Source: Candidatus Chisholmbacteria bacterium RIFCSPHIGHO2_01_FULL_52_32
GTDB taxonomy: Bacteria; Patescibacteriota; Microgenomatia; UBA1400; Chisholmbacteraceae
Reading direction: 5' to 3'
DNA: 64,000 nucleotides
Assembly (NCBI GenBank): GCA_001816585.1
Contig: MHCJ01000001.1
Coordinates: forward strand, 21,538-85,537
Position 1 is the stretch's first letter; each line of letters opens with the position of its first letter. The position numbers and the translations under genes were made by a program. This document shows positions 1,183 through 15,930 of the stretch, piece by piece. The notes beneath the pieces are model-generated. The model did not search any database and was not told the origin of the DNA. It was given only the letters and a program-made list of their open reading frames with translations.

Positions 1183-1203
1183 ACTTTTGACTTTTAACTG
1201 TGG
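1183..1203 (+). promoter_or_regulatory. recurrent upstream motif copy A (GACTTTTGACTTTTAACTGTG)
   Basis: Lies 12 nt upstream of ATG 1215. Shares ACTTTT(G/C)ACTTTTAACT with four other plus-strand upstream regions. Confidence 0.45.
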
Positions 1204-1214
1204 ACTGTTCTAGA

Positions 1215-2675
1215 ATGAATTCGATGCCGAAACTCCGTCTGCTTCCCAAAATCGTAAGCGTGGTCCTCCTGCTTCTCTTTTTCTCAACCGGCCTCGCCTA
1301 CGCCCAAGGCATCTGGTACGACCCTACCCCCGAAGAACACGCCACAGCCTTACAGGAGTGCGAGAGCGGCGAAGTCGGCTTGGAGTGCACCGTCCAAGCC
1401 ATTGTTTCCGGGGTCGGCAACTCCCTAGGATATGGTGGAGCAGGTGATCCCACCATAGCCCAAAAGCCAGGTGCCATCGGCTTCGCTGCCGCGATGATTG
1501 GAAAATTGATGGGTAACCTTCCCATCTCTTCCCACGACTACGTCCAGTATGTCGCAAGCAAGATGAACATCGCCCAACCCGCCTATGCCCAGGGGACAGG
1601 TTACTCTGTCCTCTCCCCCTTAATCCGGGTCTGGAGCGCATTCCGAAATATCGCCTACCTTGCCTATGTCTTGATCTTCATCTTTATCGGCTTTATGATC
1701 ATGTTCCGTGCCAAACTCGATCCCCAAACCGTAGTCAACGTCCAGAATTCCCTCCCCAAACTCGTCATCACCCTTCTCCTCATCACTTTCTCCTATGCCA
1801 TCGCCGGGTTTATGGTGGATCTCATCTACCTAGGTATTTATATTCTGATCGCCACGTTTGATTCAGCCGGCCTCCTCGGTGAACCGACGATTGCGTTAAA
1901 CCGCCTCCTCACCCAGAATCTCTTTGAGCTTGTCTTCAAGGCCGGGCTTTGGCGCCTGACGGCCAATGCCGCCCAGTCAGTGCAGGAACTGATTTCAAGT
2001 GCCTTGGCAAATTGGTCGATCGGCAAGTACCTCGGCTCAATCAGCGGCTGGTTGGCCCATGCGGTCTTCGTGATCGCTTTGCTCTTTGCCATGTTTAAGC
2101 TTTTCTTCCAACTGGGAATAGCCTACATTCAAATCATCCTGCAAACCATCTTCGCCCCCATCTTCATCCTCTTCAACGCTCTCCCGGGGTCCCAAAGTTT
2201 CAGCAGTTGGCTGCGCAATTTCCTTTCTAATATCCTTATCTTTCCGGCCGTTGCCACGCTCTTTCTCATTGCCGCCGTTCTCTTAGGCCCCTACCAACCC
2301 GGTCCGGGTAAACCTTCGGAAGATCCGTTCGACATCACCGCTCCCTTGATTCCTTCCGGCACTCCGTTCTGGATGCCCCCGTTCATCGGTCTAGCTGGAG
2401 GGGTGGATGCGGAGGCCATTCTCCAGTTAATCGGCTTCTTCTTCATTCTCTTTGCGCCGCAGATGGTTTCAACCTTACAGCAAGCCCTGAAAGCGAAACC
2501 GCTTCCTACCGGCGGCGTCTTTGCCCCGATCGCCGCCGGTGCCGGCATTGTTGGCGGTGCCCTCGGCGCTCCCGGAAGAGCCATTGGCGGAGTAGCCAGG
2601 GGAGTTGTGGGCGGATATGTTCAACAGAAAGGCGAAGCCCTCGGCGGAGAACTCTTCCCACCAAGAAGAAGATAA
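1215..2675 (+). CDS. polytopic membrane protein with signal peptide; possible VirB6/TrbL/PrgH-like T4SS channel component
   Basis: N-terminal signal peptide (LLPKIVSVVLLLLFFSTGLAYAQG). An ~150-aa extracytoplasmic domain is followed by at least 6 predicted TM helices and a Gly/Ala-rich C-terminal tail. Call rests on topology analogy only. Alternative starts are GTG 1200 and ATG 1224. Confidence 0.5.
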   Translation: MNSMPKLRLLPKIVSVVLLLLFFSTGLAYAQGIWYDPTPEEHATALQECESGEVGLECTVQAIVSGVGNSLGYGGAGDPTIAQKPGAIGFAAAMIGKLMGNLPISSHDYVQYVASKMNIAQPAYAQGTGYSVLSPLIRVWSAFRNIAYLAYVLIFIFIGFMIMFRAKLDPQTVVNVQNSLPKLVITLLLITFSYAIAGFMVDLIYLGIYILIATFDSAGLLGEPTIALNRLLTQNLFELVFKAGLWRLTANAAQSVQELISSALANWSIGKYLGSISGWLAHAVFVIALLFAMFKLFFQLGIAYIQIILQTIFAPIFILFNALPGSQSFSSWLRNFLSNILIFPAVATLFLIAAVLLGPYQPGPGKPSEDPFDITAPLIPSGTPFWMPPFIGLAGGVDAEAILQLIGFFFILFAPQMVSTLQQALKAKPLPTGGVFAPIAAGAGIVGGALGAPGRAIGGVARGVVGGYVQQKGEALGGELFPPRRR

Positions 2676-2692
2676 AAGGATCCACCGATCAC

Positions 2693-5600
2693 TCATTCGG
2701 AGAGAACATATTTCTGAAGATCCGCCATCCCGCGCTTCAATGCATCATAAACAATTGTCCCTCCTGCAAAAATGAGCCCGGGAACAGAATACTGATGCAG
2801 GTAGGAAAGGACGATATCCCGTTTCCTGGCATGCAGGAGCTTTTCAAGCGTTTTTGCACCATCCTCCCCAATGTACGGCCGCAGTTCCTGGACGAACCGC
2901 CACCGCTCCGCCGTTGACAAGCTCATCCCGCTCTTTCCGAACCGCCGCTGGGCAGCCGAGGAGGACTGGTTGAAAATCTTTATATCCCGCAGAGCTCCAA
3001 CCGGCCCCAGGAAAAACCCTCCGACAAATCCTAAGATTGACCCGAGCGGACCGAGCTGTTTCTTTAGGGCATACAGCTGTTTCCCCTCAACCCACGGGTC
3101 GGCCGTGTACATGTCGTTTAAGAAAACCCCTGCCAGCGAAGCGGTAATCTTCTGCCTATCTCCCTCCCCAAGATGCCCGAGCGCCTGCTTAACCTCAAGT
3201 AGCCCCTTGACAAATTCCTCGCGGCTCTGTGGGCTACCTTCCCGTGTTCCCGATAAACCCGCCGCAAGGTGAAAAATCCCCTCCGCTCCCTTACCTGCCA
3301 TCATTCCATCGATGAAACGCCTGGCATACATCCGCGGTCCTCCTGCTCCCCAATCGGTCTCCTCATGGAGAACATCATCGAGAAACGGCGCGTAGTTGAA
3401 CCGCATCCCCGCCAATTGCTCCGCAAGATCTCTTCTCTTCCCGCCATCCGTTGCCCCAAACGCCGTCAATCTCCCGATGAGCGCTTTCTCCTGATCATTA
3501 AAATTCTCATCTGGTAACAACCCGGGCACCTCCTTCATATTTAAAAGGTTCTCTATCAAAAAATCCTCATAATATTCTTCCTGCTTTTCCCGATCTAGAG
3601 GTCGTGCGCCATTACCGTCTTCCTCGCGGATCCTTTCATAGTACCCCTGCACCGCAGCCTCCTCCACCCGCCAGAGCTTCTTTTGAGTCTCCCTCCACCT
3701 ATCCCACACCTTCTTCTCCCACTTCTCACATTGCTTAGCCCATTCCTTCCGTGGCTCATCGAGATCTTTTTCCGTCTTGATTATTTTCTGCTCTCCTCCG
3801 ATCTCAACTGTGTCTCCAATCTTCATCGTAAACTCCTCCGGCCGGTCGAATTTCGTGTGGTCGGGATCCAGTTCATCCGCAATCATCCAAACGGGAAGCC
3901 GTACACCTTCCTGCCGAAAGACCTCTTCCTGTTTCCTCTCGTGCAAACGCCGATCTCTCTCAGCCTTGGTATACTGCGCCTTCTTCTCAATAAATTCCTT
4001 ATCGTGGTCATAGTCCTGATCAGCCAAAGCCCTGTTCGCAGCATACTTCTGAAACGCCTCCATTTCCCCCGCTTTACCTTGGAAAAAGACTCCCTGAAGC
4101 CTTCCATCTTTATCATGCGCCACTGACGGGAGTAGAGACAGTGTTCGCGAAGGCATCCGTTGCGGCACCTTCTCAAGTATTTTCGTCCGCTTTTCGAGCG
4201 CCTCCTTCTTCTCTTCCTTCTTATCGTCCGTAAAATCATCCGGATGTTTGGCGTTCGCCAGCTGTACCGACAGCGCCAGATCCATCCGCTCACGAAGCGC
4301 CTTGGTTGCAAGCAAAGATCGCCAAAAAGAAGAACTCCACTCCGAGCCAAAACCGAACAGGTTCTCGGGGCTGAACTTGCTCAAAAGCAGCTCATCCTGT
4401 TTGCCATGAAAGAACGCGGGCAACATCGCATTCATCTGCGACATCAACCGCTCCATGGTTTCAAGCGAATCCCCGTACTGGTCGAACCGGTCGGCAAGGA
4501 ACCGTACCGGGTTCATCGCCGTCAGGATCTTCTCAAATGGCGGGCTGTAAAGGTGGCCTAATTCATCGCGTTCCGGCAATCTTCCTTGAGCCGCATAGTC
4601 CGCCGTCCGCATATCGGCATTGGCGATCTTCAAAGCCAAGGCCGCCAACCGTTTTGCTTCCGTTTCATCAGGAGTTACTGGAAAACGCCCGCCCTCATCA
4701 CCCTCAAACGAGTGAAAAACCCTCCCTGCTTGGGAAAGCTTTAAAAGCTCCTCGGAAACGCTCTGAACAATGGAATCCGGCCCTCCTTCAAGCGAGAGCG
4801 CCTCAAAGGTCAATCTCCCCTTGTTTTTCGGATCGAAAAGTGTGCTTGCAGTTTCCTTCTCAACTAGCCGTAGTGCTACGCCCAAGCCTGGTTCCATCCG
4901 AACAATATGACTGCGGTCCCGGGAATGTCCCATGATCTCCGCACTCTTCGCAAGTTGCTCCAGATCCCCGCCGCTCTCCATGGTGACCGAGAGGTTGTGG
5001 AATAAGCGTCGCGCAACCCACCAACCCTGGTAGTCATAGTAATAACCCATCCCTCCGCCGCTCTTCACCTTTTCCAAAAACTCACCCCAAAGCTGCCAAT
5101 CCTCACTGGCGAAGTTGAACTGCTGTCGGGGATCGACCTCAGCTTCAGAAACAATTAGGTTGAAAATCCCGTCAACCGACTGCTTTGCCTGTCGCCGCTC
5201 AGCTTGCTGGTCCCTGGCCGCTTGAGTCAAAACCTCCCCATCTCTCTCCGTGGGTTTTCTCATCCGCCGGAACACCCCATCGTACTCAAGCTTCTTCATT
5301 TTCCCCAGCACTTCATAGAATCTCGGGCTATAAAGTCGCTGTGGCTCAAGAAATTTAAATGCATGCTCGCTATCCTTTCTGAATTGTTCCCTCTCTTTCT
5401 TGAACTCCCTCCCCAGCGTCTCAAGAAACTCGGGCGAGGGAACTTCATGTCTCTCCAGTATTTCATCAACCTGCGTTGCATACTTCTCCAGCTGATCGAT
5501 ATAACCCCCGAGCAAACGCACTGCCCGATGACCAACGGGAGCATGCTCAGAAGAAAGTTCTTGCACTTCCCGCTGAACATAACCCAACCTTGCCTTGGCA

Positions 5601-6325
5601 TAAGCAAGCTCACTGTCGAGATAGCCGAGAGTAAATCCTTCCTCTTCCTCAGGCTCCGCAGCCGCCTCAACCGACGGTCCCTTCATGCCTTCGGAGGGCC
5701 CTTCCGAAGGCCCAGGAATCTTCTCCGGCCTCTCAACAACGCCACCCTGTTCCGGTCGCGCTACCTCCTCGGCCGGCTTCCCTTCCGGCTTGGCTTCCTC
5801 AACCACCCCTCCCCTCAATAATCCTTCAAGCTCGAGAGACTCCCCCTTTGATAACTGTTTTGCTCCCAAAAGCCAAAGCATAACCTCAGCATCCGTTTTC
5901 GCCCCCGCCGCCCTTGCCGCCGCTATCAGTTCCTGGTACTTCTGTTCCTTAAACAGCTTCTGGATTTCCTTCCACAAGGTCCTGAGAATTGCCAACAGAA
6001 GTTTCCAAAGACCTGCCCGCTCTTTCTCGGGTATCTCCTCCCCTTTTTCTCTTTTCTTGAGGAACGCGAACAGCTGTTTGAGCTTCTCATCGGCAACTTC
6101 CGGCTTTGTCACCACTCCTTTTTCCTTGACCTTCTCCAGCGCTTCCTTGAAAAGCGCCTCCCGCATGTCCCAACTTTTGTCCACATCCTTGGCTTCAGCC
6201 GGAGGCTTCGGCTTCTCCGACCCACCACCGGAAGACCCCGCCGCCCGTCGCTCCGGCCTCTCCCTCCTGGGGGGCTTTCCTTGAGATTCCGGATTTTTCT
6301 TTAGTCCATCCTCATGCTCTGCCAT
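2693..6325 (-). CDS. large hypothetical protein (1210 aa), highly charged/coiled-coil-rich with a C-terminal hydrophobic Gly-rich segment
   Basis: Uninterrupted 3.6-kb ORF with a K/E/R-rich N-terminus and a GYYYDYQGWW motif. C-terminal segment LGPLGSILGFVGGFFLGPVGAL. No P-loop or other catalytic signature seen. Confidence 0.6.
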   Translation of the reverse strand: MAEHEDGLKKNPESQGKPPRRERPERRAAGSSGGGSEKPKPPAEAKDVDKSWDMREALFKEALEKVKEKGVVTKPEVADEKLKQLFAFLKKREKGEEIPEKERAGLWKLLLAILRTLWKEIQKLFKEQKYQELIAAARAAGAKTDAEVMLWLLGAKQLSKGESLELEGLLRGGVVEEAKPEGKPAEEVARPEQGGVVERPEKIPGPSEGPSEGMKGPSVEAAAEPEEEEGFTLGYLDSELAYAKARLGYVQREVQELSSEHAPVGHRAVRLLGGYIDQLEKYATQVDEILERHEVPSPEFLETLGREFKKEREQFRKDSEHAFKFLEPQRLYSPRFYEVLGKMKKLEYDGVFRRMRKPTERDGEVLTQAARDQQAERRQAKQSVDGIFNLIVSEAEVDPRQQFNFASEDWQLWGEFLEKVKSGGGMGYYYDYQGWWVARRLFHNLSVTMESGGDLEQLAKSAEIMGHSRDRSHIVRMEPGLGVALRLVEKETASTLFDPKNKGRLTFEALSLEGGPDSIVQSVSEELLKLSQAGRVFHSFEGDEGGRFPVTPDETEAKRLAALALKIANADMRTADYAAQGRLPERDELGHLYSPPFEKILTAMNPVRFLADRFDQYGDSLETMERLMSQMNAMLPAFFHGKQDELLLSKFSPENLFGFGSEWSSSFWRSLLATKALRERMDLALSVQLANAKHPDDFTDDKKEEKKEALEKRTKILEKVPQRMPSRTLSLLPSVAHDKDGRLQGVFFQGKAGEMEAFQKYAANRALADQDYDHDKEFIEKKAQYTKAERDRRLHERKQEEVFRQEGVRLPVWMIADELDPDHTKFDRPEEFTMKIGDTVEIGGEQKIIKTEKDLDEPRKEWAKQCEKWEKKVWDRWRETQKKLWRVEEAAVQGYYERIREEDGNGARPLDREKQEEYYEDFLIENLLNMKEVPGLLPDENFNDQEKALIGRLTAFGATDGGKRRDLAEQLAGMRFNYAPFLDDVLHEETDWGAGGPRMYARRFIDGMMAGKGAEGIFHLAAGLSGTREGSPQSREEFVKGLLEVKQALGHLGEGDRQKITASLAGVFLNDMYTADPWVEGKQLYALKKQLGPLGSILGFVGGFFLGPVGALRDIKIFNQSSSAAQRRFGKSGMSLSTAERWRFVQELRPYIGEDGAKTLEKLLHARKRDIVLSYLHQYSVPGLIFAGGTIVYDALKRGMADLQKYVLSE

Positions 6326-6428
6326 AGCTTTACTTTCATAGTACTACAAACACCAACGCTAAGTAATTTTCACCATTTTCCAGAGTTAAACGGTATTCTA
6401 CCACAAAAACTATAAAGGGTCAACCAGT

Positions 6429-6455
6429 ATTCAGTCTGCCAATGGCAGACTGAAT
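6429..6455. repeat. perfect 13-bp inverted repeat ATTCAGTCTGCCA-A-TGGCAGACTGAAT (operator-like palindrome or hairpin)
   Basis: Read directly. The arms 6429-6441 and 6443-6455 are exact reverse complements. Sits in the divergent intergenic region between the 1210-aa gene (start 6325) and the second four-helix-bundle gene. Confidence 0.7.
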
Positions 6456-6509
6456 CATTGTTATATTGCTACATTGAAACATTGCTGCTCTTTTTGTAAA
6501 GTTCCAATC

Positions 6510-6884
6510 ATGAAGAAGTATTTAAAGTTGAATGACATTAATTGCTATAAAAGGTCCCTGACGCTATCACAACATGTGTGGGAGATTGTGAATTCGTGGG
6601 AAAAGTTCGCCAAAAGCACTGTTGGTATCCAATATGTCAAAGCCATAGATTCAATTTCCGCAACGATTTCCGAAGGTTTCGGGCGCTTCTTTAAGAAAGA
6701 TAAGATCTTGTTTTACCGCTATAGCCTGGGTTCCGTAACTGAAGCTCTTGATTGGACCCAAAAATCCTGGAAGCGCAAACTCCTAACGAAAGTTCAATAT
6801 GAACATATCTTGAATGAACTTCAAGAACTTCCAAGGGAAATTCGCTATCTGATCAAATTCACAGGTGAAAAATTGAAGAAGTAA
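6510..6884 (+). CDS. four-helix-bundle protein (23S rRNA IVS protein family), second copy
   Basis: ATG at 6510 (MKKYLKLNDINCYKRSLTLSQHVWEIV...). Motifs GFGRFFKKDKILFYRYSLGSVTEALDW match the family. The ORF track's TTG start at 6474 is also possible. Confidence 0.65.
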   Translation: MKKYLKLNDINCYKRSLTLSQHVWEIVNSWEKFAKSTVGIQYVKAIDSISATISEGFGRFFKKDKILFYRYSLGSVTEALDWTQKSWKRKLLTKVQYEHILNELQELPREIRYLIKFTGEKLKK

Positions 6885-6935: not shown

Positions 6936-7238
6936 TTAAGCCGCTCCCGCGGCTTTCCTCGGCCTCCCTCCTCTCTTCCCATACTCCCTCGGAGTTAACA
7001 CAGAAGAAAAATGCGCGGATACTGCCTTCTCCGTGGTGAACCAAATCCACGGGAACCCTTTCTTTTTACTCTCCCTTCTCCGCTTCTCTCCCTCTATCTT
7101 TCCGGTGTTCAAGAGCCTGCGAATCCGATGTGTCGATCTCCCAACCTTCCTTGCCACCTCCGCCACCGAAAGCAACCCCTCCTTTTCCGGAGTCCTCACC
7201 GCTTCAACTGGTGGAGCTAAACCCTCTTTCTCCTCCAT
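6936..7238 (-). CDS. helix-turn-helix DNA-binding protein, excisionase/MerR-like
   Basis: LLSVAEVARKVGRSTHRIRRLLNTGKIEGEK is a typical HTH. Basic C-terminus. Start chosen at MEEKEG (7238); the longer ORF to 7286 is possible. Confidence 0.55.
   Translation of the reverse strand: MEEKEGLAPPVEAVRTPEKEGLLSVAEVARKVGRSTHRIRRLLNTGKIEGEKRRRESKKKGFPWIWFTTEKAVSAHFSSVLTPREYGKRGGRPRKAAGAA
6938..6955 (+). terminator. GC-rich hairpin AAGCCGC-TCCC-GCGGCTT downstream of the four-helix-bundle gene (no T-tract)
   Basis: 7-bp stem with a 4-nt loop. The same 16-mer AGCCGCTCCCGCGGCT forms the groEL terminator at 41059-41074. Overlaps the last codons of the convergent HTH gene. Confidence 0.35.
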
Positions 7239-7793: not shown

Positions 7794-7827
7794 AACTTTG
7801 AACTTTTCATTTTGAACTTTAAACTAT
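7794..7827 (+). promoter_or_regulatory. recurrent upstream motif copy B (AACTTTGAACTTTTCATTTTGAACTTTAAACTAT)
   Basis: Ends 4 nt before ATG 7832. No Shine-Dalgarno follows. TTGAAC-N16-TAAACT resembles a -35/-10 pair, which would make the mRNA leaderless. Confidence 0.45.
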
Positions 7828-7831
7828 CTTT

Positions 7832-10675
7832 ATGCCCGACCAACCTCCGATAAAAGAGCCTCCGCCGACATCTCCGCCAATCTCGAAAGAAGGATCCCAG
7901 CCTCTCGAGAGCCGATTCCAAAACTACCTCACCCTCCGTCGCCATATTAATGACCAATTCCTCATCAACGCCTCGGCGAAGGCCTCGCCGTTCTTATCCT
8001 CCGAGGTCAACCCCGCCCTCACCCAAACTGCTGCACATATCATTGGCCAACGCGCCATCCGCTATCTCCCGGAAGGGGACATCACTCAACCCGACCTCAT
8101 TCAGGCTATCCTGGCCGCCCAAAATGAGCTTGCCGATCGCGAGGTCTGGTTTGCGGCAACCCTTCCCAATAAAACCGATCGGAAGATCCTCGCCGAAACC
8201 ATAAGCCTTACGATAAGTCCTTCGCAAGCCCAGGCCGCGGTCCAGGAAGAAGCCGCCTTTGCCCAAGCGACACTCGATGATCTTCCCGAAAAACAAACTG
8301 CCATAGCCCAGATCGAAGCGGAACTGGTCAATGCCGGTGTCGATCCCAAAAAAAGCAAAACCCTGGCAACCCAGTTGAACACCCGCTTCGAAACTTGGTC
8401 CGAAAGAAGCCAAGCCGCTACCCCCCCACCCGTCATCCATGCCTTCGTCCGTCAAGCCGTTGGGCGCAGGATTGAAAACACACAAAATCTCTCGGAACGG
8501 TTGGCTCAAAAAGACGGTTTACACCAACGCACCGAGGCGATTGGTCACAACGCGGACAAAGGCCTCTCCTCGATCAAAAAAGGCCTCAAGATCACCGGCA
8601 GATTCCCGACCTCTCCGGGACTGCAAAAGGTCGGCAGGGTCCTCAAAGCCGGGGATATTATCAGCCACCCATTCTTCTACGCCAGAAGAGCCATTACTTT
8701 CCCCTTCCGCTATCTCGGCAGACAGATTGCCAGGCCGATGGTAAAGTTCGCCAAACGCACCGCCATCAAAGTGACATCCTGGACCGTGAAAAGGGTGGCC
8801 GCCTTCCTCGTCAAGGTCGGCCTCGGTTCTCTGGTCCGCTATGCGGAAGAGCTCGCCCTCGCCGGTACAGGCTTCGGCCTCCCCCTCGCCATCGCCCAAG
8901 AGCTCTTCTTCATCGGAACCGGAAAGTTCTTCAAGACCGTTAAACGAATAGCCAATGACTATAAAGAAACCTTCCGTGAGGGTATGCGAAACCCGCTCCT
9001 GGGTAGTCTGAAGTTTATCGGAACAGTAGCTGATCACGGCAGTAGCGTGGTCTTCGGCTCAGCCGGAGCCGTCCTCGGTACAGTATCGGGCGTCGCGATC
9101 GGTGCCCTGATCGGCTCGGTCGTTCCGGTTGTGGGTACCATCATCGGCGGTATCATCGGCGGCATTGCCGGAGGCGTCTTCGGCGCCGGCGTTGGGGCGG
9201 ACTTCGGCTACAAGCTGCGCAAAAGAGTTGAGAAAATGCTCAAAGCCAGGCTTGTCCTCTACCTCCTCATGAAAGCTCTCATCGCGAAACTCACCGGTGT
9301 TGTCGTCGGCTTTGGCCTAGGCGGCGTGCTCGGCTTTTTGTTGTCGGGAGGAAACCCATTAGGAGCTGTCCTCGGCGGCCTGACCGGAGGCTTCATCGGA
9401 GCCAACGCCCCGCAAATCCTCCAAGCGGTCAAGAATTTCGTCCTCAATGCCTGGCAATCAGCCTCCGGGGCCTTCCAGTCCCTCACCGCCGGACCGGGGC
9501 TTGTTTCCCAAACCGTTTCTGGGGTCGGTAACCTTCTCGGGCAAATACCATCCACCATTGCCAAAGGCTTCAACACCGCCACCGGCTGGATCAGCGGAAC
9601 AACCGTCAACACCGCCGCCACCGCGGAAAGTATCGGCGGCCAGATATTAACGACCGGTCCCTCGGCAACCCTCGTAGCCACACCGATCGCCACGGTCGGC
9701 CTTGTCACGCTCTTCTCCCTTATTGCCTACTCAGTCTTAACCGCCGCCTTCTTCGTCCCCCCGACCGAAGTCACTCCATTTTATGACGATCCCTCAAGAT
9801 TTATAAAGATCAGAAAACAAGCTTGCGTTGCCGGTACAGCCCCATTTGGATGTACACAAAACCAAATGAACCTCCCCAACCCGACCGAACAAGGCCCCTA
9901 CACCATCACCTACACCATCACCGTTGAGGCAACCGACCGCACCCTCACCGCCGTCACCATCAAGGACGAGTACACCAGCTTCGGCCGGTACCAAAGCCCT
10001 ACCAAAGCCCCAGAGGCTCCGCCCGCTCCCCCAGCCAGAACCTGGGACGGGGGAATTGTCATCCAAAACGGGCGACCCTGGACAACCACCCTAACCGTAA
10101 GCATTCCCAAAGCCACTATCTGGGACGATGCCATCCTCACCAATACGGTCACCGTCACGGCCACCGTTGAAGGTTTCTCTGATGAAGTAACCAACTCTAA
10201 GTCAGTCACCCTCATCTTCGGCAACCCACCCTTCTGCCCTCCGAATGGAGATCCTCTCGACAATCCATATTCCGTATCCGGGTATAGATACCTGAATCCT
10301 CTTTTCCATACTGGAGTCGATATCACCAATGGCTTCGGCAACCCGATATATTCAACCTTCCCTTGCCAGGCGCAAGTGGTCTTTTCCGGCTGGGGCACTG
10401 GTGGTTTCGGCTACTTCGTTGCGTTGCAAAGCGGGACTTGGTTTGCCTTCTATCCCCACATGGCCACCGATCCAGATGTCGGTGTAGGCGATATTGTCGG
10501 ATTCGGCACCGTGCTTGGGGCAGTGGGCAGCACCGGTAACTCTAGCGGCCCCCATCTCCATTACGAGATTAGAGACGGCACAAAAGGTGCTGTAAATCCA
10601 GCCGATAACTATCAACCACCCCTCACTGTCAATCCCTGCGACTTTGGTATAAATCCAACGAATTCATGTAACTGA
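7832..10675 (+). CDS. large membrane protein with glycine-zipper TM region and C-terminal M23/LytM peptidase domain; putative T4SS-associated cell-wall hydrolase (VirB1/PrgK/TcpG analogue)
   Basis: 947 aa. Middle region has multiple GxxxG-rich TM helices (GAVLGTVSGVAIGALIGSVVPVVGTIIGGIIGGIAGGVFGAGVGA). A Thr-rich beta-repeat region follows. C-terminus carries the M23 motifs HTGVDI...GYFVALQSG...GSTGNSSGPHLHYEI. Confidence 0.7.
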   Translation: MPDQPPIKEPPPTSPPISKEGSQPLESRFQNYLTLRRHINDQFLINASAKASPFLSSEVNPALTQTAAHIIGQRAIRYLPEGDITQPDLIQAILAAQNELADREVWFAATLPNKTDRKILAETISLTISPSQAQAAVQEEAAFAQATLDDLPEKQTAIAQIEAELVNAGVDPKKSKTLATQLNTRFETWSERSQAATPPPVIHAFVRQAVGRRIENTQNLSERLAQKDGLHQRTEAIGHNADKGLSSIKKGLKITGRFPTSPGLQKVGRVLKAGDIISHPFFYARRAITFPFRYLGRQIARPMVKFAKRTAIKVTSWTVKRVAAFLVKVGLGSLVRYAEELALAGTGFGLPLAIAQELFFIGTGKFFKTVKRIANDYKETFREGMRNPLLGSLKFIGTVADHGSSVVFGSAGAVLGTVSGVAIGALIGSVVPVVGTIIGGIIGGIAGGVFGAGVGADFGYKLRKRVEKMLKARLVLYLLMKALIAKLTGVVVGFGLGGVLGFLLSGGNPLGAVLGGLTGGFIGANAPQILQAVKNFVLNAWQSASGAFQSLTAGPGLVSQTVSGVGNLLGQIPSTIAKGFNTATGWISGTTVNTAATAESIGGQILTTGPSATLVATPIATVGLVTLFSLIAYSVLTAAFFVPPTEVTPFYDDPSRFIKIRKQACVAGTAPFGCTQNQMNLPNPTEQGPYTITYTITVEATDRTLTAVTIKDEYTSFGRYQSPTKAPEAPPAPPARTWDGGIVIQNGRPWTTTLTVSIPKATIWDDAILTNTVTVTATVEGFSDEVTNSKSVTLIFGNPPFCPPNGDPLDNPYSVSGYRYLNPLFHTGVDITNGFGNPIYSTFPCQAQVVFSGWGTGGFGYFVALQSGTWFAFYPHMATDPDVGVGDIVGFGTVLGAVGSTGNSSGPHLHYEIRDGTKGAVNPADNYQPPLTVNPCDFGINPTNSCN

Positions 10676-10680
10676 AGGGG

Positions 10681-10686
10681 TATAAT
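10681..10686 (+). promoter_or_regulatory. TATAAT -10 box 8 nt upstream of ATG 10695 (would give a leaderless transcript)
   Basis: GGGGTATAATAAAAACCGATG read directly. Lies in the 19-nt gap after the upstream stop. Confidence 0.3.
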
Positions 10687-10694
10687 AAAAACCG

Positions 10695-11759
10695 ATGCAA
10701 TATCGTCTTTCACTCTCCACATTGAAAAGGATCCTCTCCGTAAAAACGGCTCTGTTAATCCTTCTCGTGATTATAATTTTCACCTTAATCGTAGTTATCC
10801 AAAGAGCGCGTCGGAAAGAAACACAACCTCCGGGGGTAAACCCCACATTCGGAGATATTCCTGCCCCAAAACCATCGTACGTTTCCCAGATGAAACCACC
10901 TCAATCAACCGAACTAACACCAGATGAGCAAATCAACCTCAGTGAAACTGCCACTGTCTTCCGACGCGCCTCAACCACACTGACCGATAAACAGGCCAGA
11001 GATATCGCACGTTCATTCGGAATCTCAGGAGAACCCCTGACCTCAAAAACCTCTGTAACATTCCGTGAGAATAACCGCGTGCTTATCGTCAGCTTCAAAA
11101 AAGGTTCGCTTTCATACTTCGAACCCTTGCAGGAGTATCTGAAAGACTTCAGACAGAAAGCCTTGGAAGATTATGCTCTGATTCTCCTCAAACAGCTTTA
11201 CCCCGGGGATCCGCTTTGGGCAAACCCAAAAGTCAAGACTGGTTTCTTCACCATCATTGAGATGCAAGACTTCAAACCCACTGCTCCAAATAAAGCCGAT
11301 CTTGCAATCGTCGATCTTTATCCCACAATCGAGGGACTAAGCATTGTTGGCCCCTTCGATCCCTTCGGACACACCGGAATGGTAAGTATACAATTCAATA
11401 AAAGAGACGGCAGCCTCGTGTTAAACGGCCTGCCAACAGGACTGAACACAGCCCAGGTTGGTACCTATCCGCTGAAGAGCCTTGACGCAGTCCAAGAGGA
11501 AATCAAGCTTGGCCAAGTAACGTTAACTGCCACCATTCCTGAAGGGCAAACCCCAAAAAGCGTGGACTGGGGACAAAACCTCGATCCAACCAAGGCTAGC
11601 TTTACTTCAATCGAACTGGTCTACTACTATGATCCCGATCCTAACGCTTTCCTTCAGCCTATATACCTTTTTTCCGGAAAAACCACCCTTACCGACGGAC
11701 GCCCCGCCAACATTTTCGCCATCCTCCCCGCCATCGACCCCCAATACCTCAAGCCCTAA
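10695..11759 (+). CDS. bitopic membrane-anchored protein (N-terminal TM, ~300-aa extracytoplasmic domain); possible VirB8/TcpC-like
   Basis: TM helix ALLILLVIIIFTLIVVI near the N-terminus. Size and topology resemble TcpC/VirB8-type proteins, but no motif-level support. Confidence 0.5.
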   Translation: MQYRLSLSTLKRILSVKTALLILLVIIIFTLIVVIQRARRKETQPPGVNPTFGDIPAPKPSYVSQMKPPQSTELTPDEQINLSETATVFRRASTTLTDKQARDIARSFGISGEPLTSKTSVTFRENNRVLIVSFKKGSLSYFEPLQEYLKDFRQKALEDYALILLKQLYPGDPLWANPKVKTGFFTIIEMQDFKPTAPNKADLAIVDLYPTIEGLSIVGPFDPFGHTGMVSIQFNKRDGSLVLNGLPTGLNTAQVGTYPLKSLDAVQEEIKLGQVTLTATIPEGQTPKSVDWGQNLDPTKASFTSIELVYYYDPDPNAFLQPIYLFSGKTTLTDGRPANIFAILPAIDPQYLKP

Positions 11760-11785
11760 ACCCCCTACCCTCAACCCTCTCCCCT

Positions 11786-11794
11786 TGCTATAAT
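11786..11794 (+). promoter_or_regulatory. extended -10 promoter TGcTATAAT
   Basis: TTGCTATAATG read directly. An imperfect hairpin follows (AAGGAGTAAGTG ... CACTTATTCCTT), ending just before ATG 11875. Confidence 0.35.
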
Positions 11795-11874
11795 GCCCTT
11801 GTGAGAAAGAGTAAGGAGTAAGTGTAAAGTCGTTAAAGACTTACCACCTATTCCTATTCACTTATTCCTTGTTT

Positions 11875-12978
11875 ATGGAACAGCACCCCGTCCCCCAGCA
11901 AATCTCCGCCTACCACTTTCGCTTGGTTGGCGACATGACCATCAAACAATTCGTCGAGCTTGCCGGCGGCATCGTCGTCGGCTGGGTCATCTACTCCCTC
12001 CCCGTCCACGCGATCCTCCGCTGGCCCCTGGTGATTTTCTCGGTGTTCGTCGGCATCGCCCTGGCCTTCCTCCCCTTTGAAGAGCGGCCTCTGGATCGCT
12101 GGTTTTTTGCCTTCATCAAAGCCATCTACTCCCCAACCCAGCTCCTCTGGAGAAAGGCGCCAATCGTTCCCGCCTTCTTCGAAGAAATACAGGTTTCCGC
12201 ACCATCCGCCGCGGAAGAAAGGAGCGGTGCTGACAAAACCAGGCTCCAAGAATACTTGGAAACCCTCCCGGCCCAAGGACCCATGACAAACATCGATAAA
12301 AAAGAGCTGCACTTCGTCTCGGACATCATGAAGCTCTATTTAGAAGTCCAACCCACCACCATCCAAGCCGTTCGTCCGGCTCGCCCGATCCTTGAGGAAG
12401 AACGCGTTCCTAAGGTAGCGGTCCGCAAGCTCAAAACCCCGCCGCTTGATCCCCGCGCGATTATGCGGGGCGAAATCATCATGCCCAAGCGCACTTCTGG
12501 TAAACCGAGGAAAATTCAGATTCCCAAATTCGAACCGATCGAGGTAGACAAGTTCGCGGGGGTCCTCCCCACCCCACCTTCTCCTATTTCCCCGCAGGAG
12601 ACCCCAGCCCTCGATTTGGGAGGAATTTCCCCGGCCGCCACCATCAGGCCGAAACAACCCCAAAGACCTTCCGTCCAGGCAAGCGTCCGCCCGGACCTCC
12701 CCATCCCAACTCCCCCGACCGAACCGAACGTCCTTGTTGGCATGGTGGTCGACAGAGAAGGGAATATTCTCGATAACACCATCGTGACAATCAGAACTAA
12801 GGAAGGAAATATCGCTCGTGCCCAGAAGACCAACAAAATCGGTCAATTCTTTATCATCACCCCCCTCGAAAACGGAACCTACGCGGTCGAAGTTGAGCGG
12901 GAGGGCTTCACCTTTGATATAATCAAAATCGAGCTTATCGGAAAACCGGTCCCGCCAATCGATATCCGCGCCAAATAA
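11875..12978 (+). CDS. VirB3/PrgI-like 2-TM protein fused to a C-terminal carboxypeptidase-regulatory-like (prealbumin-fold) domain
   Basis: N-terminal hairpin of two TM helices (GGIVVGWVIYSLPV...LVIFSVFVGIALAFLPF) sits immediately upstream of the VirB4 genes, as PrgI/VirB3 does. A Pro-rich linker follows. C-terminus VGMVVDREGNILDNTIVTIRTKEGN...GTYAVEVEREGFTF resembles a CarboxypepD_reg beta-sandwich. Confidence 0.5.
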   Translation: MEQHPVPQQISAYHFRLVGDMTIKQFVELAGGIVVGWVIYSLPVHAILRWPLVIFSVFVGIALAFLPFEERPLDRWFFAFIKAIYSPTQLLWRKAPIVPAFFEEIQVSAPSAAEERSGADKTRLQEYLETLPAQGPMTNIDKKELHFVSDIMKLYLEVQPTTIQAVRPARPILEEERVPKVAVRKLKTPPLDPRAIMRGEIIMPKRTSGKPRKIQIPKFEPIEVDKFAGVLPTPPSPISPQETPALDLGGISPAATIRPKQPQRPSVQASVRPDLPIPTPPTEPNVLVGMVVDREGNILDNTIVTIRTKEGNIARAQKTNKIGQFFIITPLENGTYAVEVEREGFTFDIIKIELIGKPVPPIDIRAK

Positions 12979-12996
12979 GCGAAAGGGTTAATTTTT

Positions 12997-13023
12997 AACT
13001 TTTCACTTTTAACTTTTAACTAT
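12997..13023 (+). promoter_or_regulatory. recurrent upstream motif copy C (AACTTTTCACTTTTAACTTTTAACTAT)
   Basis: Ends 4 nt before ATG 13028. No SD. Confidence 0.45.
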
Positions 13024-13027
13024 TTCC

Positions 13028-13978
13028 ATGGCTCCCGCCCCAATCCAAGCCTCAACCCAAGAACACCTCGAACTTGAGGATATCATCGACAATCTCATCA
13101 TTTTAAAAGACGGCTCTGCCGCCATGATTATCACCACGACGGCCGTCAACTTCGGTCTCCTCTCAGAATCAGAGCAGGACGCAACCATCTACGCCTACGC
13201 CGCGCTGTTGAACTCCCTCACCTTTCCCATCCAGGTCCTCATCCGCTCAAACCGAAAGGACATCACCGGCTACGAAAAGCTTCTCTCCGAGCAGGAAGCC
13301 CGGACTCCCAAGCCGGAGAACAAAGAGCGCATCCGAAAATATCGGGAGTTTATCCAAGAAACCGTCCGTCAACGGAATGTGCTGGACAAAAAGTTCTATA
13401 TCATCATTCCGTTCTCCGTGCTCGAACTGGGAGTGGCCAAATCCGCCTCAGCCATCGCCAAAGGCACCCGCCACACCCTTCCCTTTCCGAAGGACTACAT
13501 CGCCGGTCGAGCCAAGGTTGCCCTTGAACCAAAGCGCGACCACCTCCTTCACCAGCTAGCCAGGCTCGGTCTGCGCGCAAGGCAACTCACCACCAAAGAG
13601 CTGATTCAGCTCATGTTTGAAATCTACAATCCCGAAAGTGCCCAAGGACAGCTTCTCGCTCCTCCGGAGGAGTATCAAACTCCCCTTGTTCGAGCGGCCA
13701 TCGCTTTCCAGGAGCTCCCCCAAATCGAACCCCCCCAACCGCAACCGGCAAAACCGCCTTTCCAAGCCCCTCCTCCGCCCTTAAACCCATTACCGGGAAG
13801 TCAGCCTCAAGTAGTAAGAGAAAATCCTGGACTATCCCAATCCGGCCCCCAAATCACAAGGGAAAATGCCCCGCCTGCTCCCCCCCAAACAACAATCGGA
13901 GATTCAGGCTTTGAGAAACAAGCCCAATCGACCATCGATTCAGCGATGAGCGGTGTCAATGTGAAGGAGGAAGTCTAA
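13028..13978 (+). CDS. VirB4/TrbE N-terminal-domain protein with Pro-rich C-terminal tail (apparent N-terminal half of a split VirB4)
   Basis: LEDIIDNLIILKDGSAAMIITTTAVNFGLLSESEQDATIYAYAALLNSLTFPIQVLIRS follows the l.KDGs...fe..G.dle..s..E.......N.aL..L pattern of TraC/TrbE/VirB4 N-termini. Stop TAA 13976-13978 overlaps ATG 13978 of the next ORF (TAATG). Confidence 0.55.
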   Translation: MAPAPIQASTQEHLELEDIIDNLIILKDGSAAMIITTTAVNFGLLSESEQDATIYAYAALLNSLTFPIQVLIRSNRKDITGYEKLLSEQEARTPKPENKERIRKYREFIQETVRQRNVLDKKFYIIIPFSVLELGVAKSASAIAKGTRHTLPFPKDYIAGRAKVALEPKRDHLLHQLARLGLRARQLTTKELIQLMFEIYNPESAQGQLLAPPEEYQTPLVRAAIAFQELPQIEPPQPQPAKPPFQAPPPPLNPLPGSQPQVVRENPGLSQSGPQITRENAPPAPPQTTIGDSGFEKQAQSTIDSAMSGVNVKEEV

Positions 13979-15930
13979 TGCCCGCCCTCGACATCATCCA
14001 AAAAATCCTCCCTGGGGCAAAACCAAAAGAAGGCCCCCAAGTTTCCCAACCAGGGGCAACACCGGGGAAAAATCCCGTCACCTCCACAAAATCGCGGGCC
14101 GTCGCCCAAAAGCTCGGCACGGGCATGGTCTCCATTCAAGACATCATTGCTCCCGAATCAATTGATGTGGACTTTTCACACTTAAAAATCGGTAATGCCT
14201 ATGTCAGAACCCTCTTTGTCGCTGGCTACCCCAGGTTCGTCAGCGCCAATTGGTTGGCTCCCTTGATAAACTTCGAGCACTCTCTCGATGTATCAATGTT
14301 CATCTATCCTGTCGAGGGCCGCGAGGTCCTCGATGAGCTCAGGCGGAAAATTGGCGAGATGGAGGCGGAAATCGAATCAGATCTCAAGCGCGGTCATATC
14401 GCCGTGGTTGATACGGAAATAAAGCTTGCCGATGCCAAGGCTCTCCAAGAAGAGCTCGCCAAAGGGGCGGAGCGCTTTTTCCAGTTCGGACTCTACGCCA
14501 CCATCACGGCAGTAACACTCGACGAGCTCAGCTCCACCACCAGAAGGGTCCAATCGCTCCTGGGCTCTCTGCTCATCATTTCCAAATCCGCAACCCTCCA
14601 AATGGAGGAAGGCTTCAAAACCACCCTTCCCCTCGGTCAAGACCGCCTTGTGATTACCCGCAATATGGATACCACCTCCCTTGCCACAACCTTTCCCTTC
14701 ACGTCTTCCGAGCTTACCGCCAACGAAGGCATTATGTATGGAATAAACGAACACAACGATTCCCTCATTATCTTCGACCGATTTAGCCTGGAAAATGCCA
14801 ACATGGTCATTTTCGGGAAAAGCGGTTCAGGGAAAAGCTTCTTTGAGAAACTCGAAATCATGCGCTCCTTAATGTTCGGGGTCGAAGTGATCGTCATCGA
14901 TCCCGAAGAAGAATATCGCCGGCTCTGCGATGCCCTTGGGGGAACCTACATTGACTTTGGCTACAATGCACCGGCGAAAATCAACCCCTACGACCTCTCC
15001 GCAATCTACGAGGAAGGGGAAAACGAGCTTGGTCTAAAAATCCTCTCCCTCCATGGACTATTAAAGGTGATGCTTGGCGATGTAACACCGAACGAAGAGG
15101 CAATCCTCGACAGAGCCCTCATTGGCACGTACAAAGCCCGAGGTATCACCCCGGATCCCGCTACCCAACGGAACGAACCGCCACTCATGGAGGACCTCTA
15201 TAAGACACTCATTGGCATGGAGGAAGCCACGGCCAAAGGGCTTTCCGACAGGCTCGAGAAATATGTCAAAGGATCATTCAGAAGCTTCTTCGATCAACAG
15301 TCCAACGTCGACCTGAAGAATTCCCTCACGGTTTTCTCTCTCAAAGAGCTGGAGAACGAAACTCGCCCGATCATCATGTACATCATCCTCGACTACATCT
15401 GGACTAAAGTGAAACGGGATATGAAAAAGCGCCTGGTCGTCGTCGATGAAGCCTGGTACCTGATGAAAAACGCGGACTCGGCTACCTTCCTCTACTCAAT
15501 CGCGAAACGGGCCCGCAAATACTTCCTCGGCCTCACCACCATCACCCAAGACGTCGAAGATTTCCTTGGATCTGACTACGGACACGCAATTATCACCAAC
15601 TCCTCAATCCAGATCCTATTCAAGCAGTCATCGGCCGCCATCGAGCGTCTCGCCGAAGCCTTTTACCTCTCAGAGGGAGAAAAGCATCTCCTTTTGGCCG
15701 CTGATGTTGGCGAGGGATTGTTTTTTGCCGGGCAAAACCACGTAGCCATGCGCGTTGTCGCCTCATCCGAGGAACATCACCTCATCACCACCAAACCCCA
15801 AGAGCTTGTAGAGCTGGAAAGAGAAAAAGAAGAAACCTCCCCCCGAACGACCGCAGCAGTTCCCCGCCCGGGGGAACGGCCGACCCCAACCAACCCACAG
15901 CCCAAAGGGCCTCCCGCTACCAGCTACTAG
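13978..15930 (+). CDS. virB4: VirB4/TrbE/CagE-family T4SS ATPase (PrgJ/TcpF-like)
   Basis: Walker A IFGKSGSGKSFF; Walker B LVVVDEAWYL. Core region RTLFVAGYPRFVSANWLAPLINFEHSLDVSMFIYP matches the CagE_TrbE_VirB domain. 650 aa. Confidence 0.85.
   Translation: MPALDIIQKILPGAKPKEGPQVSQPGATPGKNPVTSTKSRAVAQKLGTGMVSIQDIIAPESIDVDFSHLKIGNAYVRTLFVAGYPRFVSANWLAPLINFEHSLDVSMFIYPVEGREVLDELRRKIGEMEAEIESDLKRGHIAVVDTEIKLADAKALQEELAKGAERFFQFGLYATITAVTLDELSSTTRRVQSLLGSLLIISKSATLQMEEGFKTTLPLGQDRLVITRNMDTTSLATTFPFTSSELTANEGIMYGINEHNDSLIIFDRFSLENANMVIFGKSGSGKSFFEKLEIMRSLMFGVEVIVIDPEEEYRRLCDALGGTYIDFGYNAPAKINPYDLSAIYEEGENELGLKILSLHGLLKVMLGDVTPNEEAILDRALIGTYKARGITPDPATQRNEPPLMEDLYKTLIGMEEATAKGLSDRLEKYVKGSFRSFFDQQSNVDLKNSLTVFSLKELENETRPIIMYIILDYIWTKVKRDMKKRLVVVDEAWYLMKNADSATFLYSIAKRARKYFLGLTTITQDVEDFLGSDYGHAIITNSSIQILFKQSSAAIERLAEAFYLSEGEKHLLLAADVGEGLFFAGQNHVAMRVVASSEEHHLITTKPQELVELEREKEETSPRTTAAVPRPGERPTPTNPQPKGPPATSY

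What the first reader, a model, noticed from the sequence alone, without database searches (positions are those of the whole stretch)
1183..15930. Origin-proximal Gram-positive-type (VirB4/PrgJ/TcpF-like) type IV secretion module with no relaxase or coupling ATPase in the window
Between about 1.2 and 15.9 kb the plus strand carries, in order: a polytopic VirB6-like membrane protein (1215..2675); a 947-aa glycine-zipper membrane protein ending in an M23 peptidase (a VirB1/PrgK/TcpG-like wall hydrolase); a bitopic TcpC/VirB8-sized protein; a 2-TM VirB3/PrgI-like protein; and a VirB4 ATPase with Walker A/B. This is the minimal monoderm T4SS set (VirB1/3/4/6/8 analogues). No VirD4, relaxase or nic-site protein is seen in the window. 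The block therefore looks like a non-conjugative secretion or contact apparatus, not an ICE. It sits about 2 kb from dnaN-dnaA, i.e. in core chromosome. Similar systems have been implicated in host attachment and epibiosis in reduced-genome bacteria. The oppositely oriented 1210-aa protein and the two IVS-type four-helix-bundle genes sit inside the block and could encode substrates or accessory factors.
Basis: partly seen in the sequence, partly recalled or inferred. Interest (0 to 1): 0.75.

Follow-up and report, generated by a model that had tools for sequence, protein, structure and literature searches.

The report
Known Patescibacteria type IV secretion locus
This is the chromosomal, origin-adjacent type IV secretion gene cluster typical of ultra-small Patescibacteria (here a Chisholmbacteria genome); it is real and correctly spotted, but this kind of system, its lack of a relaxase and its position next to dnaA/dnaN were published in 2023-2025.

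Summary
The window comes from Candidatus Chisholmbacteria (Microgenomatia, Patescibacteria).

**Confirmed components**
- VirB4 is a CD1110-type ATPase (E 6e-120).
- PrgI/VirB3 scores above the Pfam cut-off.
- The 947-aa membrane protein ends in a catalytically intact M23 peptidase.
- The polytopic protein has a VirB6 fold: the top five Foldseek hits are TrwI/VirB6.
- No relaxase or coupling protein lies in the window or in 10 kb to its left.
- dnaN starts 36 bp after VirB4.

**Corrections**
- VirB4 is split. Gene 13028-13978 is a TrsD-type N-terminal piece.
- The module runs about 4.6 kb past the left edge of the window. That stretch holds seven VirB2-type pilin genes and the start of a 662-aa secreted protein.

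**Novelty**
All the main points are published: the MPF-FATA ancestry, TrsD, pilin arrays, the missing relaxase and the dnaA proximity (PMC12102498, PMC10633639). Chisholmbacteria genomes are in that dataset.

**Small additions from this work**
- The M23 hydrolase and the YycI-like protein form a conserved two-gene cassette.
- VirB6 is paired tail-to-tail with a hypervariable, highly charged protein, 719-1448 aa in the related loci (1210 aa here).
- A promoter-like element occurs only inside this module.

The parts
1..763 (+). C-terminal part of a 662-aa secreted, cysteine-rich protein. The gene starts 1225 bp left of the window and follows the seven-gene pilin array.
   Evidence: L001 7561-9549; signal-peptide-like N-terminus. 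No Pfam or PDB sequence hit.
809..1174 (+). IVS-type four-helix-bundle gene (PF05635/TIGR02436). It is bracketed by a 40-nt imperfect inverted repeat at 761-800 and 1173-1212.
1176..1208 (+). Heptad-repeat (ACTTTTN)n promoter/leader-like motif ending 7 nt before the VirB6-like start codon.
1215..2675 (+). VirB6/TrbL-like polytopic channel protein (486 aa).
2693..6325 (-). 1210-aa protein: highly charged, nearly cysteine-free, no signal peptide, hydrophobic C-terminal segments. It is convergent with VirB6, with stops 17 bp apart. Function unknown.
6510..6884 (+). Second IVS-type four-helix-bundle gene.
6936..7238 (-). Small ORF with a weak HTH_17-type helix-turn-helix (E 0.0013, below cut-off). 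Possible local regulator.
7795..7820 (+). Heptad-repeat motif ending 12 nt before the start codon of the 947-aa gene.
7832..10675 (+). 947-aa multi-pass glycine-zipper membrane protein with a C-terminal M23 peptidoglycan endopeptidase. It fills the VirB1 role and is the first gene of a conserved two-gene cassette.
10695..11759 (+). 354-aa bitopic protein with a YycH/YycI-like fold. Second gene of the cassette. Not a VirB8/TcpC fold.
11754..11804 (+). Module-specific C-rich element CCCTAAACCCCCTACCCTC followed by TGCTATAAT (extended -10-like), upstream of PrgI. Copies also lie upstream of pil1, pil5 and the 662-aa gene.
11875..12978 (+). PrgI/VirB3-like 2-TM protein with a C-terminal CarboxypepD_reg beta-sandwich.
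12991..13023 (+). Heptad-repeat motif ending 5 nt before the TrsD start codon.
13028..13978 (+). TrsD-like protein, the detached N-terminal domain of VirB4, with a proline-rich tail. Its stop overlaps the VirB4 ATG.
   Evidence: matches positions 18-121 of the CD1110 model and 105-233 of VirB4_plasma. Present in 74/80 loci.
13978..15930 (+). VirB4 ATPase of the CD1110/MPF-FATA type, with Walker A and B motifs.
15967..17115 (-). dnaN (context; convergent with VirB4).
17310..17353 (.). Cluster of three DnaA-box-like TTTTCCACA sites between dnaA and dnaN. Two more lie at 18774-18894, upstream of dnaA.

Best explanation
This is the core-chromosome type IV secretion system of the 'Patescibacteria clade', a lineage descended from monoderm MPF-FATA conjugation machines, in a Candidatus Chisholmbacteria (Microgenomatia) genome.

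Parts (shown):
- A split VirB4 motor (TrsD plus VirB4).
- The PrgI/VirB3 membrane adaptor.
- A VirB6-fold channel protein.
- A large membrane-anchored M23 peptidoglycan endopeptidase, encoded as a cassette with a YycH/YycI-fold bitopic protein.
- Just outside the window, seven divergent VirB2-type pilins and a secreted cysteine-rich protein.

Mechanism (inferred):
- VirB4, docked by PrgI and TrsD, energises assembly of a VirB6 channel and a VirB2-type pilus or tube.
- The M23 enzyme opens the wall locally. Its YycI-like partner positions or regulates it.
- The apparatus contacts a host bacterium and moves macromolecules (proteins or nucleic acids). It does not mobilise its own DNA, because no relaxase, oriT protein or local coupling ATPase accompanies it.
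- The module has its own promoter-like elements, and an ECF sigma gene is divergent from the pilin array.
- The module is transcribed towards the nearby origin.
For: Identity of the parts.

Organism. P0005 is 100% identical and is named Candidatus Chisholmbacteria RIFCSPLOWO2_01_FULL.

Conserved synteny in 80 Microgenomatia loci:
- PrgI in 70 of 80.
- TrsD in 74 of 80.
- dnaN within 10 kb in 61 of 80.
- The 3' end of VirB4 faces dnaN/dnaA in 60 of those 61.

Other points:
- The hydrolase plus YycI-like cassette is present in 25 of 27 loci, with gaps of -37 to +77 bp.
- The module extends to the left with pilins.
- No relaxase, T4CP or integrase was found.
- The module-specific promoter-like element has four copies, all inside the module.

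Literature:
- PMC12102498 describes the same architecture, the lack of a relaxase and the dnaA proximity. Its dataset includes three Chisholmbacteria genomes, all VirB4-positive.
- PMC10633639 shows that the equivalent cluster is essential for epibiotic growth of Southlakia epibionticum.
Against: - Function has never been tested in Microgenomatia. No host, substrate or direction of transport is known.
- VirB6 fails the Pfam cut-off on sequence, and its TM-scores to TrwI are low (0.23-0.41).
- A T4CP or relaxase elsewhere in the 1.2-Mb genome could not be searched for.
- Linkage of the 1210-aa protein, the 662-aa protein and the IVS genes to the machine rests on position alone.
- The membrane orientation of the YycI-like protein is not determined.
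Confidence: 0.85

Rival explanations
1. The same machine works mainly as an importer. It would be a Ced-like uptake system that pulls host nucleic acids or other macromolecules into a cell that cannot make nucleotides, rather than exporting effectors.
For: - VirB4 gives weak hits to the archaeal DNA-import ATPases CedB (E 1.9e-14) and CedD (E 1.5e-8), far below their cut-offs.
- There is no relaxase or local T4CP, so no classical export substrate pathway is evident.
- A 2026 preprint links T4SS-like tubes and VirB4 monophyly with acquisition of host RNA in this phylum.
Against: - The CedB/CedD scores (53 and 34 bits) are tiny beside the CD1110 match (402 bits).
- No CedA-type proteins were recognised.
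- In S. epibionticum, loss of comEC abolished competence but not viability. As the review reads it, T4SS essentiality is therefore not explained by the DNA-uptake route through ComEC (PMC12857230).
- Direction of transport cannot be read from sequence.
Confidence: 0.2
2. The block is a decayed integrative conjugative element or plasmid remnant that has lost its relaxase and coupling protein.
For: - The closest non-Patescibacteria family for VirB4 is the CD1110 ICE type.
- A small ORF (6936-7238) has a weak excisionase-type HTH_17 hit (E 0.0013).
Against: - The PrgI-TrsD-VirB4 order and the dnaN neighbourhood are conserved across 60-74 of 80 Microgenomatia loci at only 56-72% VirB4 identity. 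That pattern fits long vertical inheritance.
- There is no integrase, no flanking tRNA and no direct repeats.
- GC content and GC skew match the flanking housekeeping genes.
- All ORFs are intact.
Confidence: 0.03
3. The block is not one system. The M23 hydrolase/YycI-like cassette and the 1210-aa protein would be general cell-envelope or housekeeping genes that merely lie next to a smaller T4SS core (pilins, VirB6, PrgI, TrsD, VirB4).
For: - YycH/YycI-fold proteins are known as regulators of cell-wall homeostasis, not as T4SS parts.
- The cassette changes position relative to the core, lying upstream of PrgI or downstream of VirB4.
- The 1210-aa protein has no detectable family.
- The window holds a second M23 gene elsewhere, at 43747-44442.
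Against: - In 33 of 80 loci a member of the 354-aa family lies within about 7.5 kb of VirB4, always on the VirB4 strand.
- 15 of 17 VirB6 genes are followed tail-to-tail by a large charged ORF.
- In S. epibionticum, the large peptidase and lysozyme genes next to virB4 are essential, like the T4SS core.
Confidence: 0.15

Closest known systems
Patescibacteria-clade T4SS, e.g. Southlakia epibionticum ML1 SEML1_0004-0019 (Wang et al. 2023, PMC10633639; survey by Quinonero-Coronel et al. 2025, PMC12102498)
   Same: - Split TrsD+VirB4, PrgI, a VirB6-like protein and an array of divergent PF18895 pilins (six in ML1, seven here).
- A large membrane protein with a C-terminal peptidoglycan peptidase.
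- No relaxase or local T4CP.
- Placed beside dnaA-dnaN and transcribed towards them.
   Different: - VirB6 here is short (486 aa, against 1088 aa with helical-repeat domains in ML1). It is paired with a separate, convergent 1210-aa charged protein.
- The bitopic partner is YycH/YycI-like, not the NTF2-like SEML1_0012.
- The hydrolase cassette lies upstream of PrgI rather than downstream of VirB4.
- Two IVS-type genes are inserted.
- No functional data exist for this lineage.
MPF-FATA conjugative T4SSs of Firmicutes (CTn2/CD1110 type; pGO1/pSK41 TrsC-TrsD-TrsE; pCF10 PrgH-PrgI-PrgJ-PrgK-PrgL)
   Same: - VirB4 scores above the CD1110 family cut-off.
- A separate TrsD-type gene precedes VirB4, as in pGO1.
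- PrgI/VirB3 and VirB6 analogues are present, together with a membrane-anchored wall hydrolase.
- There are no outer-membrane core components.
   Different: - No relaxase, T4CP, oriT or surface adhesin.
- VirB2-type pilins are present, which Gram-positive systems lack.
- The hydrolase is M23, not SLT/CHAP.
- No VirB8/TcpC-fold protein was recognised.
- The location is chromosomal and core, not on a mobile element.
YycH/YycI accessory proteins of the WalRK system (PDB 2FGT, 2O3O) and the uncharacterised EUBREC_2869 (5COZ)
   Different: - No sequence similarity (no Pfam or PDB sequence hit).
- No histidine kinase nearby.
- Here it is encoded immediately after, and often overlapping, a membrane M23 hydrolase inside a T4SS cluster.
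Archaeal Ced DNA-import system (CedA/CedB)
   Same: A VirB4-family ATPase working without a relaxase, and a possible import function in a monoderm envelope.
   Different: Only weak sub-threshold similarity (CedB 53 bits against a cut-off of 700). No CedA-like proteins were recognised. Pilins, PrgI and VirB6 are of bacterial type.

Membership tests
Patescibacteria-clade / MPF-FATA-derived T4SS | VirB4-family ATPase with intact Walker motifs, closest to MPF-FATA types | tested here: met
   NCBIfam conju_CD1110 at 401.7 bits (cut-off 325) and P-loop_TraG E 1.4e-31. The motifs can be read.
Patescibacteria-clade / MPF-FATA-derived T4SS | VirB4 branches inside the monophyletic Patescibacteria clade | not tested
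   No tree was built. All 80 best genomic relatives (56-72% identity) are Patescibacteria-type loci, though several records carry wrong names.
Patescibacteria-clade / MPF-FATA-derived T4SS | Separate TrsD-type gene (VirB4 N-terminal homologue) directly upstream of virB4 | tested here: met
   13028-13978 matches CD1110 model positions 18-121 and VirB4 matches 183-734, so the two are colinear. The TrsD model itself scores only 22 bits against a cut-off of 200. The split is conserved in 74/80 loci.
Patescibacteria-clade / MPF-FATA-derived T4SS | VirB3/PrgI-type 2-TM protein | tested here: met
   PF12666 at 31.9 bits against a cut-off of 27. Present in 70/80 loci.
Patescibacteria-clade / MPF-FATA-derived T4SS | VirB6/TrbL polytopic protein | tested here: met
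Patescibacteria-clade / MPF-FATA-derived T4SS | Array of VirB2-type pilins (PF18895) | tested here: met
   All seven genes left of the window hit PF18895, five of them above the cut-off.
Patescibacteria-clade / MPF-FATA-derived T4SS | Associated peptidoglycan hydrolase (VirB1 role) | tested here: met
   Peptidase_M23 E 1.9e-17 with HxxxD and HxH motifs. This is an analogue of VirB1, not a homologue.
Patescibacteria-clade / MPF-FATA-derived T4SS | No relaxase near virB4; location near dnaA/dnaN | tested here: met
   dnaN lies 36 bp from VirB4.
Conjugative element (ICE or plasmid) | MOB relaxase and type IV coupling protein | tested here: not met
   None in the 64-kb window or in the 10-kb left flank. 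The rest of the genome could not be tested with these tools.
Conjugative element (ICE or plasmid) | Integrase with att repeats, or a replicon | tested here: not met
   No integrase, no flanking tRNA and no border repeats.
VirB8 / TcpC / PrgL (NTF2-like bitopic T4SS protein), for 10695-11759 | NTF2-like VirB8 fold after an N-terminal TM helix | tested here: not met
YycH/YycI family, for 10695-11759 | Fold similarity and bitopic architecture | tested here: met
YycH/YycI family, for 10695-11759 | Sequence-family membership and association with a WalK-type kinase | tested here: not met
   None of the 71 family members has a Pfam hit. No histidine kinase is in the neighbourhood.

The most novel reading that the evidence does not exclude
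Microgenomatia T4SS loci may carry two conserved but undescribed accessory units.

1. A membrane M23 hydrolase translationally coupled to a YycH/YycI-fold bitopic protein. This protein would take the place of VirB8/TcpC as the extracytoplasmic scaffold or hydrolase regulator.
2. A VirB6 gene locked tail-to-tail with a hypervariable, highly charged, tail-anchored cytoplasmic protein of about 1,100-1,300 aa. Its extreme divergence would mark it as a host-specificity factor, a substrate or a cytoplasmic docking platform that replaces the missing coupling protein.
Probability: 0.3. Interest if true: 0.5.

Novelty: already known. Interest (0 to 1): 0.27.

Why it matters
The Patescibacteria T4SS is the first T4SS shown to be essential for the growth of the bacterium that carries it. 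It is a leading candidate for how these ultra-small epibionts exploit their hosts, so correct annotation of its parts matters.

This locus adds no new kind of system. It does offer a well-assembled Microgenomatia example with three testable leads:
- A protein family with a confidently modelled YycH/YycI fold (463 cluster representatives) sits where a VirB8 would be expected.
- A giant, fast-evolving protein is linked to VirB6.
- The module has its own promoter-like element and a divergent ECF sigma gene, which could define its regulon.

Tried and rejected
- **DGR idea.** The IVS-type genes are Avd-like, so I looked for a diversity-generating retroelement. No TR/VR-type repeat pairs were found and no reverse transcriptase among the scanned ORFs. 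Rejected.
- **IVS genes as core T4SS parts.** They occur in only 5 of 80 related loci. Rejected.
- **Structured RNA in the 6.9-7.8 kb gap.** No Rfam hit at E <= 0.1 in 1-22 kb.
- **The 1210-aa protein as a cryptic coupling ATPase.** There is no conserved Walker A in 18 positional counterparts, and no Pfam or PDB hits.
- **Uniting the positional counterparts into one family.** Iterative HMM searches did not merge the subgroups. Only one hhalign pair reached 85% probability.
- **Phase variation through the heptanucleotide repeats.** Three independent assemblies show identical gene spacing, so there is no evidence for it.
- **Foreign origin suggested by the strong negative GC skew.** The skew continues into the housekeeping genes to the left, so it is a property of the replichore.
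- **AFDB fold search.** The library was unavailable.
Full report
**What is in the sequence**

All are on the + strand unless marked.

| Coordinates | Product |
|---|---|
| 809-1174 | IVS-type four-helix-bundle protein |
| 1215-2675 | polytopic protein, 486 aa |
| 2693-6325 (-) | 1210-aa protein |
| 6474/6510-6884 | second IVS-type protein |
| 6936-7238 (-) | small ORF with a weak HTH |
| 7832-10675 | 947-aa membrane protein |
| 10695-11759 | bitopic protein, 354 aa |
| 11875-12978 | 2-TM protein |
| 13978-15930 | VirB4 |

dnaN (15967-17115, -) begins 36 bp after the VirB4 stop, and dnaA follows. Three lines of evidence place the origin 1.2-3.3 kb from the end of the module:
- DnaA-box-like TTTTCCACA sites cluster at 17312-17353 and 18774-18894.
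- Cumulative GC skew bottoms out at 16-18 kb.
- rnpA, yidC and jag follow on the other side.

**Family tests**

- **VirB4.** It scores 401.7 bits on the NCBIfam CD1110 family model (cut-off 325). The TcpF model gives only 26 bits, so "CD1110/MPF-FATA type" is the accurate label.
- **TrsD.** The 316-aa protein matches the N-terminal region of VirB4 models (CD1110 positions 18-121, VirB4_plasma 105-233) and weakly the TrsD/TraD model. VirB4 proper covers positions 183-734, and its ATG overlaps the upstream stop. VirB4 is therefore naturally split, as in pGO1. The split is present in 74 of 80 related loci.
- **PrgI.** It passes the Pfam threshold and carries a C-terminal beta-sandwich.
- **The 947-aa protein.** It has a glycine-zipper membrane region and a C-terminal M23 domain (E 1.9e-17) with both metal-binding motifs intact.

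**The "VirB8/TcpC-like" protein is something else**

The family is large: 463 cluster representatives at E <= 0.001. It has no Pfam or PDB sequence match. A high-confidence model (pLDDT 93.9) aligns best with these structures:

**The module is cut by the window**

Exact-match contigs (a 178-kb JGI contig and a 98-kb ENA contig) show what lies to the left:
- The ORF fragment at 188-763 is the end of a 662-aa secreted, cysteine-rich protein.
- That gene is preceded by seven small genes, all of which hit PF18895 T4SS_pilin.
- A divergent ECF sigma factor gene lies beyond them.
- Further left are ordinary genes (NUDIX, GHMP kinase) with no relaxase, T4CP or integrase.

Among the 48 window ORFs scanned, which include all non-shadow ORFs of about 200 aa or more, nothing resembles a relaxase, VirD4 or integrase. 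The rest of the window is CPR-type housekeeping.

**Organism and conservation**

The VirB6-like protein is 100% identical to a protein of Candidatus Chisholmbacteria RIFCSPLOWO2_01_FULL. A genome scan with VirB4 returned 80 loci, essentially all Microgenomatia-type, although many records carry wrong names. Across those loci:
- PrgI-TrsD-VirB4 is the invariant core.
- dnaN lies within 10 kb in 61 of 80.
- In 60 of those 61, the 3' end of VirB4 points at dnaN/dnaA.

The strong negative GC skew (-0.15 to -0.34) continues into the housekeeping genes to the left. It is a replichore signal, and the T4SS genes are transcribed towards the origin, head-on to replication. The published S. epibionticum coordinates show the same orientation.

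**Two conserved accessory arrangements**

1. **Hydrolase cassette.** In 25 of 27 loci with a full-length member of the 354-aa family, the gene immediately upstream on the same strand is a large multi-pass protein (600-1610 aa). Gaps run from -37 to +77 bp, and an M23 domain is detectable in 18 of the 27. This cassette sits either upstream of PrgI or downstream of VirB4.
2. **VirB6 and a giant charged protein.** In 15 of 17 loci with a detectable VirB6-like gene, it is followed tail-to-tail (gap -7 to +65 bp) by an ORF with these properties:
   - 719-1448 aa long;
   - 28-36% charged residues;
   - almost no cysteine;
   - no signal peptide;
   - often a hydrophobic segment near the C-terminus.

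   These proteins diverge so fast that only one pair of subgroups is linked, by profile-profile comparison (85% probability). The window protein has two detectable homologues among 5.8 billion clusters. They have no Pfam or PDB match and no conserved P-loop. Their role is unknown. I treat them as positionally conserved partners of VirB6.

**Regulatory features**

- A 19-nt C-rich element (CCCTAAACCCCCTACCCTC), followed by an extended -10-like TGnTAnnnT, occurs upstream of pil1, pil5, the 662-aa gene and PrgI. It is absent from the other 48 kb of the window, against 0.01-0.02 matches expected by chance.
- Heptad repeats (ACTTTTN)3-4 end 5-12 nt before the start codons of the VirB6-like gene, the 947-aa gene, TrsD, rnpA and an SBP gene. 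There are 17 matches against 0.49 expected.

**Comparison with the literature**

Wang et al. 2023 (PMC10633639) showed the equivalent cluster in S. epibionticum. It is essential, has pilins, lacks a relaxase and coupling protein, and sits beside dnaA-dnaN.

Quinonero-Coronel et al. 2025 (PMC12102498) surveyed 3,035 genomes and reported:
- the MPF-FATA-nested Patescibacteria VirB4 clade;
- TrsD as the commonest partner;
- PrgI;
- scarce VirB6 and VirB8 detection in Microgenomatia;
- M23-bearing VirB1 substitutes;
- pilin arrays of 2-11 genes;
- relaxases in only 103 genomes;
- T4CP genes common but rarely near virB4;
- enrichment of dnaA/dnaN near virB4.

Three Chisholmbacteria genomes are in their dataset, all VirB4-positive. 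A 2025 review repeats these points. The finding as written is therefore already known.

**Verdict**

- VirB4 is split.
- The bitopic protein is not VirB8.
- The pilins and part of the module lie outside the window.

The absence of a T4CP holds only locally. The incremental observations (the hydrolase/YycI-like cassette, the VirB6-linked giant protein, the module-specific promoter-like element and the head-on orientation) are modest leads, not a new kind of system.

Noticed in passing
window 772-797(-), 1176-1208, 7279-7297(-), 7795-7820, 12991-13023, 19219-19251, 32569-32601: Heptanucleotide repeats (ACTTTTN)3-4 lie directly upstream of start codons, ending 5-12 nt before the ATG where a gene follows. 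There are 17 matches against 0.49 expected. The TTGACT/TTCACT and TAAACT/TTAACT hexamers inside them look like -35 and -10 boxes, which would give leaderless or near-leaderless mRNAs. Several other genes have TATAAT 7-9 nt before the ATG (p354, the tRNA synthetase at 30592, the small HTH ORF).
   Followed up: partly
L001 7299-7542 (left of the window, between pilin 7 and the 662-aa gene); also L001 5016-5055 and window 7311-7349: Long intergenic arrays of degenerate heptanucleotide tandem repeats (GCTATTN/GCTCTCN; TAATTCA/GAATTAT). Three independent assemblies show the same gene spacing, so there is no sign of repeat-number variation.
   Followed up: partly
window 761-800 and 1173-1212: A 40-nt imperfect inverted repeat (78% complementary) brackets the first IVS-type four-helix-bundle gene exactly. 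This recalls the stem that flanks such ORFs in 23S rRNA intervening sequences. The arms are inverted copies of the heptad motif. The two IVS-type genes are the only ones in the 64 kb.
   Followed up: partly
window 1-16000 versus 19000-64000; L001 1-21461: GC skew is strongly negative (-0.13 to -0.34) left of the origin but only about 0 to +0.1 to the right, so the two replichores are markedly asymmetric. AT skew is strongly positive on the right (up to +0.39).
   Followed up: no
loci L007-L086: Many Microgenomatia-type contigs that carry this T4SS are deposited under implausible names (uncultured Pseudomonadales or Gammaproteobacteria, Nevskiaceae, Candidatus Methanoperedens). This points to mislabelled or contaminated MAG records.
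   Followed up: no
L001 3460-4014 (-), about 4.8 kb left of the window start: An ECF-type sigma-70 gene is divergently transcribed from the first pilin gene. It is followed by small unannotated ORFs that could be its anti-sigma factor. It is a candidate regulator of the module-specific promoter-like element.
   Followed up: no
window 43747-44442 (-): A second, small (231 aa) stand-alone M23 peptidase lies far from the T4SS block.
   Followed up: no
window 19914-20696 and 36874-37638: Two YidC/60KD_IMP-type insertase genes lie within 17 kb of each other. The second has the Pfam hit. The first is inferred from position and sequence only.
   Followed up: no
window 61433-63404 (-): Two adjacent FemAB-family genes have predicted ORFs that overlap by about 200 bp, so one start codon is probably mis-set. 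They suggest a peptidoglycan cross-bridge pathway.
   Followed up: no
S. epibionticum ML1 coordinates and 60 of 61 related loci: The T4SS core operon is always oriented so that it is transcribed towards dnaA/dnaN, head-on to replication if oriC is beside dnaA. The published survey discusses proximity (gene dosage). In the sections I read, it does not discuss orientation.
   Followed up: partly
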